DNA of 64,000 nt, from the NCBI GenBank assembly GCA_963666345.1, contig OY762721.1, positions 2,208,001 through 2,272,000 on the forward strand, given 5' to 3'. The first letter of the stretch is position 1. The number at the start of each line of letters is the position of its first letter. Source of the stretch: Desulfatiglandales bacterium (GTDB lineage: Bacteria; Desulfobacterota; DSM-4660; Desulfatiglandales; Desulfatiglandaceae). Below are positions 18,001-24,000 of the stretch, in pieces. The position numbers are program-made.

Positions 18001-21000
18001 TGCGCGAATTGATACGGATACCGGGAAGAAGTGCCCAGGTTAGAAACTGTCTTATTATGTTAATCCAAGGCGAATGTGGCATCAATCTCTTTTTGTACAT
18101 TGACTGGTCGGGCATCAAAATCTATATTCACCATATGTCGCATATACCCAGCATTCAGGATGTTTTAGGCCCAGGCGGCCTGTTGGCCAACTCAATGGAT
18201 AGCTTTGAGGTGCGCACATCCCAGATTGAAATGGCCCATATGATCGCCGGTTGTCTGGAAAATGGTCTCTCAGCTGTTGCAGAGGCGGGAACAGGCACGG
18301 GAAAAACACTTGGATATCTGGTGCCGATTATTCTGAGCGGCCAAAAGGCCATCATCTCAACGGGTACCAAGAATCTTCAGGAACAGATTTATTTCAAGGA
18401 CGTGCCTTTGCTGAGAGAGGTCTTTCCTTTTCAAATCGACGCTATGCTGATGAAGGGTAGAAGTAATTACCTTTGTCTTTACCGGTATCACCAATATTTT
18501 TCGCGGCCGTCGCTTTTCAAGGATTCAAAGGGCAAATTAAGGAAAAAGATCGACAGATGGATAGAGAAAACAGAATTTGCCGACAGGGCTGAGCTTCCCT
18601 GGCTAAGAGACGATGATCCCCTTTGGGATTCTATCTCTTCGACAACCGAACAGTGTGTCGGAGGAGATTGCCCCTTTTACGAGGATTGCTTTTTGAATCG
18701 TCTCAGAGCAAGGGCTGCGCAGTCAAGGCTGATAATCGTGAACCATCATCTATTTTGTGCCGACATAAAGCTTAAGATGGATGGTTTCGGCGAAATAATT
18801 CCCAGATTTCAGGCGGCTGTCTTTGATGAGGCGCATGAATTTGAAGATATCTGCTCCTCTCATCTTGGAGAAAGACTGGGCACAAAGCAGCTTTTGGATC
18901 TGGCAATGGATTGGGAAGACAGTGTGAGGTCCTTTAAGGGTGAAGCGCGGTCACTTGTCATGCCTGCAATTTTGGAGATAAACGGGGGAGTTGAAGGTTT
19001 AAGATCATATTTTGAGAAAAAAAAAGACAGGGACAGGATGCATGAAACGGTCCTTTTGGAATTAAATGAAGGGCCTGTGAGAGTCATAAAATCAGGGCTT
19101 GATAAGCTGAGTAGAAAAGCCCTTGAAAAACGTTCCTCTTTTCAACCGCTAATCAGAAGGGCCGAGGACCTGAAGTGTTGTTTGGAGAAGATCTTCAGCA
19201 CGAGAGGCAATGACTGGCTCAACTGGTATGAAAGGCGAAGCAAAAGTATACTGTTTTACGCCTCTCCGCTCAATGTGTCCGATATACTCAATGAGGCCCT
19301 CTACGAAAGAGTGAAGACAGTGATATATACATCGGCAACGCTTGCTACCGCAGGCAACTTTGAATTTATGCGATCACGCCTTGGGCTTCATAAAGAAATA
19401 AAGGAAGCCATATACCCCTCACATTTCGATTTTTCGAATCAGACGCTTCTCTATATACCCGAGGACCTTCCTCTCCCTGTTCAATCCGGTTTTCCGGATG
19501 AGGTTTCCAAGCGGGCACTGGAGGTCTTTCTGATTACTCAAGGCAGGGCGCTTTTGCTTTTTACAAGCAAGAAAAATATGAATCTGGCCTATTCTTATCT
19601 GAAAGAGAAGATACCCTATTCTATCTTCCTGCAGGGTGATGCGCCAAGGACCGTGCTTCTGGAAAGATTCAGAGAGGATGTCCACTCCGTACTGCTGGCG
19701 ACAGGCTCTTTCTGGCAGGGGGTGGATGTGCCGGGAGAATCTTTGAGTTGCCTTATAGTGGATAAACTTCCCTTTGATTCGCCGTCGGATCCCCTTGTCG
19801 CGGCAAAGATAGACTCGATCCGTGCCGGGGGCGGAAACCCTTTTATGGAATATCAGTTGCCTTCCGCCATAATCGCCTTGAAGCAGGGCCTTGGCAGGCT
19901 CGTTAGGAAAAACAGCGACCGGGGAGTCCTTTCTGTAATGGATTCGAGGATCCTGACCAGCAGATACGGAAGGTTTTTTATTGAAAGTCTGCCTGAGATG
20001 CCGATAAGCCATGATCTGGAAGACATAAAAAGATTCTTCTCCTCATCAGGTACACCTGATTAATGATTTCAAGATCTTGAAAGGAAAACAGTTATGTCGA
20101 TCAAACCCTGGGAAATTATTTCTCGAAAATGGGATGATGGCTATCGTATTTTCAGATTGAGGACGGACAGGGCCCTTTCTCCGCGTACCGGGCATGATCA
20201 CAATTTCTATGTGCTGGAGACATCCGACTGGGTGAATGTCATCCCTCTTACAGATGAAAACGAGGTCGTACTTGTTAGGCAATATCGACACGGTACAGGT
20301 GAAATAACACTTGAGATACCGGGTGGACTGGTGGAAGGAGATGCCTCCCCCGAAAATGCCGCCTGGAGGGAGCTTCGTGAGGAAACCGGTTGTTCAGGTA
20401 GGGACCTTGTCAATCTTGGAAGCGTACACCCGAATCCTGCCATACAGAACAACAGGTGTCATTCCTTTCTTGCCAGGGGCGTTTTTCCCGCCGGAGGGCT
20501 GAATCAGGATCCCAAGGAAGATATAGAGGTGATAGTGAGACCTCTGAGCGAGATCCCTCTGTTGATCCTGAACGGCACGATAACACATTCACTGGTATTG
20601 GCGGCATTTTATAGATTATTCATGGAGCATGGTGAAGTTTGTCCCGGGGGGATGCAAAATTTTTCTTGACAGGATATGGTCTGTTAATCTAATGCTTTGC
20701 TAAACAAAGACAGAGTATTAGAAAAGGAATTTGTATTATGAGCGGATTCAGCGAAAAGTTTTTTTTCTTTTTTATGGGGAGTAATCTGCCCATGCGCTGA
20801 AACTGGTTGAATATCATCTTTAATAGCCGCGGGTAGCCATCAATTGGACCCGCGGTTTTTTTTTGGAAAAGGGAGATAAAAGTGAACAAAAAGGGAAAAA
20901 ACGGTGAACAGGAGCTTCTTAAAGGGCATGAAGCGGAGATCATGAATCTTAATGAGCAGATCCTTTCTCTTCTCGATAAAAGGCAGGATCTGGCAGCGGA

Positions 21001-24000
21001 GGCGGGCAGAATAAGGCAGCAGGAGGGACTTGAAGGCCTTGATCCTGCCCAGGAGGAACATATAATTGAAAGACTGGCAGCCGGCAGCGGGACGAATCTG
21101 GACCAGGGAGCAATAAAATCAATATTCAAGGAGATATTTTCCGCGGCCTGTGCAGTGCAAAATCCCCTTACCGTTTCATATCTCGGACCGGAAACCACTT
21201 TCAGCCATCAGGCGGCATTAAGGCTTTTCGGTAGATCAGCCACCTTTAGGCCTCTAGAGACGATCGAGGAGGTCTTTACAAATGTTGAAAGAGGGAATTG
21301 TCAGAGAGGAGTTGTTCCGGTTGAAAATGCCTTTGCAGGTTCTCTTCATGATACCCTGGATCTGTTCAGTAAATATGATCTGAGAATATGTGCCGAATCC
21401 CTTTTGCGGGTACGCTATAATCTTTTGACCAATGCGGATGATCTGGGGAAAATCGCGCGTCTTTATGCCCATCCGACCGTGGTTGAGCAGTGTAAGGCCT
21501 GGCTTTTGAACCACCTTCCAGAGATACAGGTCAAAAAAGTAGAAAGTTCTTCAAAGGCCGTGATTATGGCCTCGAAAGATCCTGAAGCGGCGGCACTGGG
21601 AGGCAACCTTTCAGCAAAGACCTATGGAGTGAAAATCCTTGCCGAGGATATTGAAGATCATCCCGACAATGTGACACGCTTCTTTGCGATCTCCAGAAAC
21701 GACTGTCCCGTAACGGGCAATGACAAGACGACCATCCTTTTTTCGGTAAACCACAAGCCGGGTGCCCTTTACGAGGCGCTCAAGGTGCTGGCGAAGCGCA
21801 AGATAAACATGAGCAAGATCGAATCCAGGCCTCTCAGGACAAGGGGCTGGGAGTACCTCTTTTTCATGGATATCGAAGGTCACAGGGCTGATCATGAAAT
21901 AGGAGTGTCCCTGAGCAAGATGAAAGATAAATGCGAGGAATTCAAGATAATCGGATCATACCCCGTAGCAAAAAGTCCATGGCCCTGAACGTAATTGTCG
22001 CTTCGGTAACTTGACGTTGCAGGCGATAGGAGCAAAATGGAATTTGTCATGGACATAATTCTCAGTTCATGTTATCTGGATACTTTTGTTTTTTAAGCCT
22101 TTTTTTGGGTTAATTTTTATATCCTATATCTTTCTAGGGGTCTTAGATATCCAGAGGCCATTTACTGAGGAGGGTTCAGCTGATGTTGCTGAGTATCATG
22201 AGGAGACATGCCAAATCCTGGCTGATAAAGCTCCTGATAGCCATAATAGCCGTAGTTTTCGTTTTCTATTTCGGTTATTCCTTTACCGCCAAGCAGGTAA
22301 CCAAGATAGCCTATGTAAACGGGGAAATCATAAGCGGCCTTGAATATCAGAAGGCATATTGGGATTTGAGGGAGTCCCTTCAGAAAAAATACAAGGACCT
22401 GTGGAACGAAAACTTCGTGAAACTTTTTGATCTTAAAAACAGGGCACTTCAGGGGCTCATAGATCGAAAACTTATCAGCCAGGAGGCAAAACGACTAGGG
22501 CTTGATGTCACGGAAGAAGAGGTCCAGCAGGCGATTATAAATTATCAGCCTTTTCAGACAAACGGCACCTTTGACATGTCGCGTTACAAGGGCCTTCTGG
22601 CCCAGAACCGTCTGGAAGCCGACGCTTTTGAGGCGGACATGGCAAGACGCCTGCTTGATTCCAAGCTGCAGCAGTTTTTATTCGGATTTCTGGCATTAAC
22701 TGAAAAGGAACTTGTCGATTTCTATACCTATTCAAATGAAAAGGTCAAAGTCTCCTATGTAACATTCCAGCCTGAAAGTTTTAAGCATACGGTCAGCATA
22801 GACCCTGCCAAGATGAAAGACTACTTTGAAGAGAACAAAGAGGGCTTTAGAATTCCTGAAAAGATTCGTCTTGCCTACATTGAAATTGACCCGGCAAATT
22901 TCAATAAACAAATCGGTGTGAAAGAGGAACAGGTCAAGGATTATTATGAGTATCATATCGATTCCTTTTCCGAACCCAAGAAGGTAAAGGCCCGGCATAT
23001 ACTCTTCAGGCTGGATCCGGACGCTGTCGAAGAGAAAGAAAAAGAGGTCAGGACCAGGGCCCGGGAGGTACTTGAAAAGGCCCGTGAGGGTGAAGATTTT
23101 GCTGAACTGGCAAAGGAGTACTCAGAGGGTCCTACAAAGGAAAATGGTGGAGATCTGGGATATTTTTCCCCAGGTCAGATGGACAAATCTTTTGATGAGG
23201 CGGTCTTTTCCTTAAAGAAAGGAGAAATAAGCGAACCGGTAAGGACCCGGTTCGGTTATCATATAATACTGGCCGAGGATCTCAAGGAGGCCTTCACGAG
23301 AAGCCTTGAAGATGTGCACCGGGAAATTGAAGATACATTAAGGGGCATTGCAGGCGGGGAACTTGCTCATGAAAGGGGCCTTATCCTGTTAGACCAGATG
23401 CCTTACGATATAGACCTTGCAGAGTATGCCAAAGAGCATGAACTTGAGGCGAAACAGACAGAGCCTTTTTCAGTTAATGAGTCGATTCCCGGAATAGATG
23501 ATAATCAGAAACTGCGGCAGTCACTTTTCGCCCTTAAAGGAAAAGAGACGAGTGATCTGATTGAACTTGGTGGAAAATTTTACATCTTTCAGGTTTCTGA
23601 CAGGAAAGACTCATCCCTTCCTGAGCTTGATGAGGTAACCGAAGAGGTTAAGGATGCCTTTGTTGCGTTCATGGCGGCCGAGCAGGCAAAGGCAAAGGCA
23701 AATGAGTTCCTTAACGAGATAAAACAGGGTAAGGCCTGGGATCAGGCTGCCGAAGAGATGCATGTGGACCCGCAGATGAGCGAATTTTTCAGGAGGCTCG
23801 ATCCCATTGCCGAGATAGGGGCTACTCCCCAGCTGATGGAGATGGTCTTTTCTCTTAATAAAGACCGGGTTTACCCTGAGGATATATATGAAAATGAAAA
23901 AGGCGTCTTTGTCTTCAGGTGGGAAGACCATCAAGATATAGATGCTGCAAAATATGAAGAGGAAAAGGAACAATATCGCCTTTCCCTGATGAGGGTAAAG

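What a model noticed while it worked through the whole genome (the two positions that open the first line are those of the whole stretch)
20882..21988. Whole shikimate/chorismate branch lost in a free-living 4.2-Mb sulfate reducer: pheA is the lone survivor, aromatic salv [...]
The circular genome lacks aroA, aroC, aroD/Q, aroE, aroK, tyrA, every chorismate-binding enzyme (trpE, pabB, menF), trpA/C/D and the futalosine menaquinone genes, although it keeps Qrc, Qmo and DsrMKJOP. pheA stands alone, cut out of the aro/trp operon where relatives keep it. Salvage tools remain: tyrosine phenol-lyase (g02710), two TrpB2, four IorAB, a Tyr ABC transporter, MenA/UbiE; the only DAHP synthase (class II) and AroB sit in a low-GC LPS-sugar cassette (g02257-8).
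Evidence so far: DNA-level family searches: 0 hits for PF01264, PF00290, PF00425, PF02621, PF08501; PF00275 hits murA only; other genes by table look-up. aroC in 68 of 93 good order genomes; G096/G139/G132 have pheA between aroC and aroA. The loss recurs: G116 (2 contigs) lacks aroC, aroA, trpA, mqn. Contig ends join in frame.
(Added by a program. Inside this text positions count along the whole contig: contig position 2,208,001 is position 1 of the stretch shown here. "Call 12" and the like, gene names such as g00115 and contig names such as C1 are that model's own, and its searches are not shown. The text may have been shortened before it was handed on; [...] marks where a part breaks off. 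The agent that wrote the report below was given it as the finding of a first reader that could run no searches.)

Follow-up and report, generated by a model that had tools for sequence, protein, structure and literature searches.

The report
Orphan pheA kept after shikimate loss
This sediment bacterium really has lost the pathway that makes aromatic amino acids, as many of its relatives have, yet it keeps an altered copy of the last phenylalanine enzyme, conserved and apparently switched on by phenylalanine shortage, although it cannot make that enzyme's normal substrate.

Summary
The loss is real. No aroC, aroA, aroK, aroE, aroD/Q, tyrA, trpA/C/D/E or chorismate-binding gene or remnant is found; the contig ends close across a gene. 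It is not rare: 19 of the other 89 good order genomes lack aroC, PDT, trpA and mqn together, and mqn absence is the order's norm.

It has no new neighbours: it sits at the ancestral operon site (NUDIX..ppiD) behind an overlooked leader-peptide attenuator (five Phe codons), homologous to the aro-operon leader but Phe-only. It belongs to a stand-alone paralog clade with damaged chorismate-mutase residues, which coexists with a full operon in G103 and G138; sister G146 shows the operon decaying. It is under purifying selection (pN/pS 0.09) although no prephenate source exists. Best reading: a Phe-starvation dehydratase acting on scavenged prephenate or arogenate; a new substrate or a recent loss are rivals. 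A second trpB2 carries two tandem Trp attenuators, which supports indole salvage.

Scan look-ups found no lone pheA elsewhere; Trp-leader trpB2 was noted in other genomes.

The parts
17958..20063 (+). dinG-like helicase; ancestral upstream flank of the trp/aro cluster site
   Evidence: Pfam Helicase_C_2/DEAD; same place in G034, G037, G138, G144
20094..20669 (+). NUDIX hydrolase; ancestral upstream flank. In G034 10,706 bp (trp operon, aroK, aroC, aroA') lie between it and pheA; here 213 bp
20738..20800 (+). Phe leader peptide MSGFSEKFFFFFMGSNLPMR; five consecutive Phe codons at 20759-20773; purine-rich stretch (AGGAA) upstream
   Evidence: the tail matches aro-operon leaders; only 3 ATG frames of <=40 aa with FFFFF exist in the genome
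20786..20796 (+). antiterminator arm (CUGCCCAUGCG) that pairs with the terminator's 5' arm (20828-20836) when the upstream RNA is covered
   Evidence: predicted duplex -11.5 kcal/mol; folding with bases up to 20783 removed gives this helix; all 20 leaders tested form such a duplex
20826..20864 (+). intrinsic terminator hairpin (about -18 kcal/mol) followed by U9
   Evidence: (region z = -3.5; 0 of 200 shuffles)
20882..21988 (+). stand-alone pheA paralog, 368 aa (CM-PDT-ACT), intact and under purifying selection
20933..21160 (+). chorismate-mutase domain with changed active-site residues: E. coli R11->E17, K39->R45, R51->Q57 (R28, D48, E52, Q88 kept)
   Evidence: canonical relatives keep these in 67, 69 and 69 of 70
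21173..21700 (+). prephenate-dehydratase domain: E159, N160, H209, Q215, E232 and TRF kept; E. coli S208->A196
   Evidence: S kept in 69 of 70 canonical relatives
21728..21892 (+). ACT domain with GAL(Y) and ESRP regulatory motifs intact
   Evidence: motifs as described in PMC13217925
22183..24090 (+). ppiD/SurA; ancestral downstream flank. In G034 4,956 bp (tyrA, aroB', aroD, aroE, aroA) lie between pheA and it; here 195 bp
   Evidence: aroA directly precedes ppiD in G021, G034, G118, G188, G184, G109

Best explanation
G000 has truly lost chorismate synthesis and the trp pathway and must take aromatic rings from outside. Its pheA is a paralog that arose at the old operon site: the aro-operon attenuator came to lie directly before pheA, the flanking genes went, the leader became Phe-only and the chorismate-mutase site decayed. 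How it works (inferred): when Phe is short the ribosome stalls on five Phe codons, the antiterminator forms and pheA is transcribed; the dehydratase turns prephenate into phenylpyruvate (or arogenate into Phe), and Phe inhibits it through the ACT domain. In G103 and G138 the canonical operon supplies prephenate. G000 has no such supply, so I propose that the enzyme works on prephenate, arogenate or spontaneously rearranged chorismate taken up from neighbours or lysed cells. Shown: gene absences, synteny, paralogy, residue changes, selection, leader anatomy. Inferred: attenuation, loss of mutase activity, dehydratase activity, substrate source. Odds: loss real 0.9; Phe-attenuated, mutase-dead paralog 0.85; still a dehydratase on scavenged substrate 0.45.
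For: Absences with working controls and no remnants. Closed circle with a clean GC-skew V. The same gene order in a separately deposited contig, 99.98% identical over 8.2 kb, and in a related strain from another study whose contigs bridge both junctions. Ancestral layout in G034. The same leader-pheA unit at this site in G103, G138 and G146; G103 and G138 also hold a canonical pheA in an operon elsewhere. Lone clade nested beside the G118 operon PheA. All 4 lone leaders are Phe-only; all 15 operon leaders tested also hold Tyr or Trp (110). Selection: 13 synonymous and 4 non-synonymous changes, pN/pS 0.09, p=4e-6; 0 of 41 differences to an 89% sister protein fall in 99 conserved columns, p=1e-6. 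Sister G146 has an operon leader followed by about 45 codons of aroK and an aroC missing about 120 residues, with no aroA, trpA or PF00425, yet keeps the lone pheA (60, 62, 73, 35).
Against: No uptake system for prephenate, arogenate or chorismate was identified. 11 of 11 same-family genomes without aroC in the order sample also lack PDT, so most pathway-less relatives do without it. S208->A is recalled to cut E. coli PDT efficiency about 100-fold (Zhang et al. 2000, not read), and G000 has further cleft changes (E152A, M199T/K, A202E). I could not test whether the strains used for the selection test still own an aro operon. G146 is a 240-contig bin with 6% contamination, its aroC remnant lies at a contig end, and hisB was not found in it either. 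No expression evidence: the RNA contigs laid covered only ppiD.
Confidence: 0.45

Rival explanations
1. Lag after a recent loss. The paralog is an ordinary Phe-regulated monofunctional PDT fed by an aro operon elsewhere, as in G103; this strain lost that operon recently (for example between IS21 copies), and the selection signal predates the loss.
For: The paralog makes plain sense in G103 and G138. G000 carries many near-identical 2.46-kb repeats, one annotated as IS21. The operon status of the X6 strain and of the P0003 organism is unknown.
Against: No protein or DNA remnant and no orphan operon leader remain. In G103 the aro and trp operons lie on different contigs, so at least two losses may be needed. 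The sister G146 is losing the operon on its own. G000 shows what look like adaptations: tandem Trp attenuators before a trpB2 and the only Tpl over cut-off in 151 genomes.
Confidence: 0.25
2. New function. The paralog's dehydratase cleft now takes another substrate and catalyses a step of a chorismate-free route to Phe, possibly with the only other gene under this attenuator family in the genome (a 540-aa GNAT-like orphan).
For: Cleft changes are fixed between G000 and P0003 while the fold is conserved. Exactly two members of this attenuator family were found in G000. A PDT-fold protein with a second activity is known (GqqA; PMC8192741, passages).
Against: TRF, N160, Q215, E159 and E232 are kept. 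The orphan was not found in G103 or G146 and is not enriched where aroC is missing (24 of 55 against 34 of 95). No candidate substrate or partner gene lies beside pheA.
Confidence: 0.2
3. Assembly gap: the aro and trp operons exist but were dropped from the contig.
For: Completeness 96.7%; many repeats; in relatives the genes are clustered and can lie away from this site (53, 57).
Against: One contig with ends joined across a gene; an 8-copy tandem repeat is resolved; replichores about 2.0 and 2.2 Mb; the same joint absence in single- or two-contig relatives G098, G071 and G100; G037 has NUDIX and ppiD 280 bp apart on one contig.
Confidence: 0.05
4. Non-catalytic Phe sensor: only the ACT domain matters, and the protein regulates a partner.
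For: ACT motifs intact, mutase site damaged, S208->A.
Against: The PDT domain differs from the sister protein no faster than ACT (15 of 182 against 7 of 93), and induction by Phe shortage fits a biosynthetic enzyme better.
Confidence: 0.05

Closest known systems
E. coli pheL-pheA (bifunctional P-protein behind a Phe leader attenuator; b2598/b2599)
   Same: CM-PDT-ACT architecture; upstream Phe-run leader with competing antiterminator and terminator; TRF, N160, Q215, ESRP kept.
   Different: Mutase residues R11, K39, R51 changed and S208->A; the leader comes from the order's own W/Y/F aro-operon leader and matches no Rfam family (44); the host makes no chorismate.
Monofunctional prephenate dehydratases (PDB 2QMX, 6VH5, 3MWB, 2QMW)
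   Same: Same PDT+ACT fold (Foldseek E 2e-29, TM 0.87 by target); probably dehydratase-only.
   Different: Keeps a damaged mutase domain; no other chorismate mutase of PF01817 in the genome.
Mycobacterium tuberculosis AroQ-delta chorismate mutase (Arg in place of the conserved Lys; PMC7762937, passages)
   Same: Same Lys->Arg change, which there goes with under 1% of normal efficiency unless bound to DAHP synthase.
   Different: G000 also lacks the R11 and R51 equivalents and has no chorismate supply.
GqqA of Komagataeibacter europaeus (PMC8192741, passages)
   Same: PDT-fold protein with changed catalytic residues; precedent for a second activity.
   Different: GqqA has no mutase domain and is an AHL acylase; no such activity is indicated here.
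Aryl-acid and indole salvage of anaerobes (Methanococcus maripaludis IOR route; Thermotoga TrpB2; recalled, not read)
   Same: G000 has IorAB x4, a PaaK-like ligase with an ACT partner, TrpB2 x2 and Tpl (29, 72, 101, 38).
   Different: M. maripaludis keeps de novo synthesis too (recalled); here direction is supported only for the Trp-attenuated trpB2.
Shikimate-pathway loss survey (Zucko et al. 2010, PMC3018139, passages)
   Same: Pathway loss scored by HMMs.
   Different: There 16 of 147 free-living bacteria were incomplete, missing one or two enzymes; here the whole branch is gone in 4-5 Mb genomes.

Membership tests
Bifunctional P-protein (PheA) | CM_2 + PDT + ACT domain order | tested here: met
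Bifunctional P-protein (PheA) | AroQ active-site residues R11, R28, K39, R51, E52, Q88 (list partly recalled; R11, D48, Q88 and the Lys seen in PMC12329711 and PMC7762937) | tested here: not met
   R11->E, K39->R, R51->Q; TIGR01801 52 bits against cut-off 106 (38)
Bifunctional P-protein (PheA) | Chorismate mutase activity | not testable with these tools
   needs an assay
Prephenate dehydratase | TRF motif, E159, N160, Q215, E232 | tested here: met
   NF008865 258.7 bits against cut-off 219 (38)
Prephenate dehydratase | S208 | tested here: not met
   Ala here and in 4 of 9 other lone-clade proteins; Ser in 69 of 70 canonical ones
Prephenate dehydratase | ACT domain with GALV/ESRP motifs | tested here: met
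   GALY and ESRP
Prephenate dehydratase | Activity on prephenate with Phe feedback | not testable with these tools
   needs an assay
Ribosome-mediated leader-peptide attenuator | Short ORF with a run of cognate codons | tested here: met
Ribosome-mediated leader-peptide attenuator | Mutually exclusive antiterminator and terminator with U-tract | tested here: met
   predicted folding, conserved in 20 of 20 leaders
Ribosome-mediated leader-peptide attenuator | Phe-dependent read-through in vivo | not testable with these tools
   RNA contigs did not cover the leader
Rfam leader families | Match to an Rfam model | tested here: not met
   only two chance lncRNA hits at E 7-9 (44)
Pseudogene / decaying remnant | Relaxed selection or broken frame | tested here: not met
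   pN/pS 0.09; 0 of 41 differences in conserved columns
Tyrosine phenol-lyase | TIGR02618 over cut-off | tested here: met
   755 against 720.7 bits; direction of use untested

The most novel reading that the evidence does not exclude
In this order, free-living 4-5 Mb anaerobes repeatedly abandon the shikimate pathway, and one lineage keeps a Phe-starvation-induced, mutase-dead PheA as a step of an undescribed chorismate-independent supply of phenylalanine: either cross-feeding on cyclohexadienyl intermediates (prephenate, arogenate) or a new reaction of the PDT fold. The two genes under this attenuator family (pheA and the GNAT-like orphan) and the doubly attenuated trpB2 would mark that route.
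Probability: 0.35. Interest if true: 0.8.

Novelty: new variant of a known kind. Interest (0 to 1): 0.55.

Why it matters
An abundant group of aromatic-degrading sediment anaerobes often cannot build aromatic rings. That predicts growth requirements (Phe, Tyr or phenol, Trp or indole, pABA since folP is kept without pabB, and possibly a naphthoate) and may help to culture them. Annotation that scores 'pheA present' misleads here. The orphan PheA is a sharp, cheap test: an enzyme held by selection and wired to Phe starvation with no internal substrate either exposes cross-feeding on prephenate or arogenate, or a new activity. It also shows an attenuator retuned from three amino acids to one.

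Tried and rejected
pheA moved to new neighbours: rejected by synteny. pheA as a decaying remnant: rejected. mqn absence as part of this loss: rejected, it is the order's norm. Tpl, TrpB2 or the GNAT orphan as markers of pathway loss: no enrichment; kin are not independent, so the p-values there are descriptive only. A hidden DAHP synthase or aroA: the PF00793 hit is KdsA and the PF00275 hit is MurA. Other aroC-negative, PDT-positive genomes as further lone cases: 5 of 8 were inspected (G009, G137, G145, G059, G083) and all carry an operon with aroD, four of them also aroE and aroA, so these look like contig breaks; G060, G081 and G089 were not inspected. An empty site for the relocated operon: G103's flanks map to 0.34 and 3.0 Mb in G000, so none could be defined. 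A loose genome-wide leader scan gave mostly noise and its output was cut; the motif scan replaced it. Single-sequence fold failed (pLDDT 36). Atlas search of the orphan gave only GNAT-like clusters. RNA run X9 covered only ppiD: no statement on expression. The paper search for S208A found nothing relevant. Origin of the G103 and G138 operons (moved or imported) stayed unresolved: aroC and aroB' trees have weak backbones. PF07736 (AroH mutase) was not searched.
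Full report
1. Genome. G000 is one contig of 4,162,108 bases with a single GC-skew minimum and maximum, 47 tRNAs and a tmRNA. The ends join in a 774-aa frame, and a G138 ortholog aligns across the join at 48% over aa 21-772, so the circle is closed there. A close relative of the lone-type PheA comes from a record titled Desulfatiglandaceae (L306); I take that as the likely family. Runs that hold the stretch are mostly marine sediment (three may be the source).

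2. The absences. PF01264 gave no candidate in G000, with 14 of 14 controls ringing. PF00290, PF00425 at E<=1, PF02621 and PF01220 gave none either; PF00275 hit only murA. HMMs built from 7-45 relatives per gene and run on all six frames found nothing for aroC, aroA', aroB', aroD, trpE, trpD and trpA, and only short or weak matches for aroE (E 6e-5, 70 residues), aroK, tyrA and trpC; a TrpF-like 309-aa protein matches over 70 residues. DNA searches with six relatives' operon loci found only pheA and flanking genes. hisB, leu/ilv genes and folP are present, so the loss looks specific as far as tested. I did not test Qrc, Qmo, DsrMKJOP, UbiE or AroH.

3. How unusual. aroC is in 95 of 151 order genomes and 66 of 90 good ones. 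43 of 150 lack aroC, PDT, trpA and mqn together; 19 of these are at least 90% complete and at most 5% contaminated (quality unknown for two), and six have 30 contigs or fewer. Fragmented bins inflate such counts. mqnA/D are in only 29 of 95 aroC-positive genomes, so their absence is not part of this loss. Zucko et al. 2010 (PMC3018139, passages) found 16 of 147 free-living bacteria incomplete, by one or two enzymes. Jochum et al. 2018 on Desulfatiglans single cells (PMC6129605, passages) has no main-text mention of auxotrophy, phenylalanine or tryptophan; its supplementary tables were not read and may bear on this. Searches listed no paper on this loss or this paralog; the library lacks most subscription papers.

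4. pheA is at the old site. G034 reads dinG, NUDIX, trp operon, aroK, aroC, aroA' x2, pheA, tyrA, aroB', aroD, aroE, aroA, ppiD. G000 reads dinG, NUDIX, pheA, ppiD: 213 and 195 bp where G034 has 10,706 and 4,956 bp. A separately deposited contig is 99.98% identical over window 15881-24117 (L228; it may be the same sample). Contigs of a related strain from another study bridge NUDIX-leader-pheA and pheA-ppiD (X6). In G037, which lacks aroC, NUDIX and ppiD lie 280 bp apart.

5. An overlooked attenuator. 20738-20800 encodes a 20-residue leader with five consecutive Phe codons, followed by a hairpin and U9 (z -3.5). With the RNA up to 20783 removed, as a stalled ribosome would cover it, 20786-20796 pairs with the terminator's 5' arm. 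Relatives' aro operons carry the same leader family with mixed Trp/Tyr/Phe codons and the same tail. All 4 lone-pheA leaders are Phe-only; all 15 operon leaders tested hold Tyr or Trp as well; all 20 leaders form the antiterminator duplex. Rfam has no match. A motif scan finds two members in G000: pheA and a 540-aa GNAT-like orphan, the latter noted earlier by the scan (e1-7672451). Function is inferred from anatomy and conservation.

6. A paralog, not a leftover. The same leader-pheA unit stands at this site in G103, G146 and G138; I recognised it in these 4 of 105 family genomes without inspecting every locus. G103 and G138 also have a canonical pheA in an aro operon elsewhere. The lone proteins form a clade (support 0.857) beside the operon PheA of G118 (0.994). 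G000's nearest relatives are G103/G146 by ppiD (0.989) and G146 by RpoC (0.993; G103 was not in that tree); G138 falls apart from them, so one origin or two cannot be told. G146 keeps the operon leader, about 45 codons of aroK and an aroC lacking residues 125-244, with no aroA, PF00425 or trpA: decay in progress, with the caveats of a 240-contig bin in which hisB was also not found.

7. Residues. Against E. coli PheA: R11->E, K39->R, R51->Q, kept in 67, 69 and 69 of 70 canonical relatives; 8 of 9 other lone proteins have Glu for R51 (the G138 copy is less changed). A Lys->Arg change marks the poor M. tuberculosis mutase (PMC7762937, passages); R11 is called catalytically important in PMC12329711 (passages). 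The dehydratase keeps TRF, E159, N160, Q215 and E232 (motifs in PMC13217925 and PMC8192741, passages) but has S208->A; the 100-fold cost of that change in E. coli is recalled, not read. The model (pLDDT 87) matches solved PDTs.

8. Selection. The X6 strain differs in pheA by 13 synonymous and 4 non-synonymous changes (pN/pS 0.09, p 4e-6; ppiD 0.05, from one contig covering 21053-21988). An 89% identical protein shares the active-site changes above, and none of its 41 differences falls in 99 conserved columns (p 1e-6). Whether those two organisms lack the operon is unknown; this is the main gap.

9. Salvage. The second trpB2 (G000 4.105 Mb) has two Trp leaders, each with its own terminator, in tandem. 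Among 30 relatives' best trpB2 loci, which resemble the other copy, 2 had WW-containing short frames that I judged chance. This supports indole-to-Trp use. Tpl is the only one of 151 over cut-off, behind an Lrp gene and next to IS21; an Lrp gene fits catabolism equally well. An operon at 1.765-1.770 Mb encodes an amino-acid dehydrogenase-like protein, a TrpX-like ABC transporter and IlvE. A PaaK-like ligase (620 bits, below 646) sits with an ACT protein. Directions are unproven. DAHP synthase II and AroB lie among sugar-modifying genes (agrees with e1-7672244).

10. Verdict. It works like E. coli pheL-pheA but is not a bifunctional P-protein by residues. Best reading: a Phe-starvation dehydratase on scavenged prephenate or arogenate (0.45); recent loss (0.25); new substrate (0.2); assembly gap (0.05); sensor (0.05). 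New variant of a known kind; interest 0.55.

Noticed in passing
G000:C1:4104742-4106470 (L139): Second trpB2 behind two tandem Trp leader peptides (five and three Trp codons), each followed by its own terminator; about 62% identical to the common trpB2 type.
   Followed up: partly
G000:C1:3470551-3472335, minus strand (L138): 540-aa GNAT-like orphan behind a Phe/Tyr leader of the same attenuator family; found in 60 of 151 order genomes, fused to a metallo-beta-lactamase-fold domain in 8 of the 30 loci fetched.
   Followed up: partly
L292 (G146:C146:1-1000): aro operon in decay: intact leader and terminator, aroK cut to its last ~45 codons, aroC with an in-frame deletion of ~120 residues.
   Followed up: yes
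L290 (G103:C89): aro operon without tyrA and with a long-branch canonical pheA.
   Followed up: partly
L031-L045, L267-L269, L289, L290: An order-wide aromatic leader-peptide attenuator family before aroK (tail G-x-x-[LP]-P-M) and NWWW leaders before trpE; the G000 member has no Rfam match.
   Followed up: partly
G000:C1:2549790-2550557: folP is present although no pabB/trpE-type gene exists; also in G100, G084, G098 and G102. The pABA source is open; DAHP synthase II plus AroB could give dehydroquinate.
   Followed up: no
G000:C1:3769912-3771603 (L142): 309-aa TrpF-like protein (weak PRAI match) followed by a TenA/PqqC-family gene.
   Followed up: no
G000:C1:1764809-1770358 (L534): Operon of an amino-acid dehydrogenase-like gene, a TrpX-like ABC transporter and IlvE: candidate aromatic amino-acid uptake and transamination unit.
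   Followed up: partly
G000:C1:3093664-3095600 (L106, L159): Tyrosine phenol-lyase with an Lrp/AsnC regulator beside IS21; possible horizontal gain.
   Followed up: partly
G000:C1:558983-565002: Near-perfect tandem repeat of a 753-bp unit, about 8 copies; many 2.46-kb repeats (one annotated as IS21) elsewhere.
   Followed up: no
order sample, family f3: Only 8 of 34 genomes have aroC and 6 of 34 trpA: the loss may be ancestral in much of that family.
   Followed up: no
L270 (G138:C9): A 524-codon frame with multiple CxxCH motifs lies between the lone pheA and ppiD.
   Followed up: no
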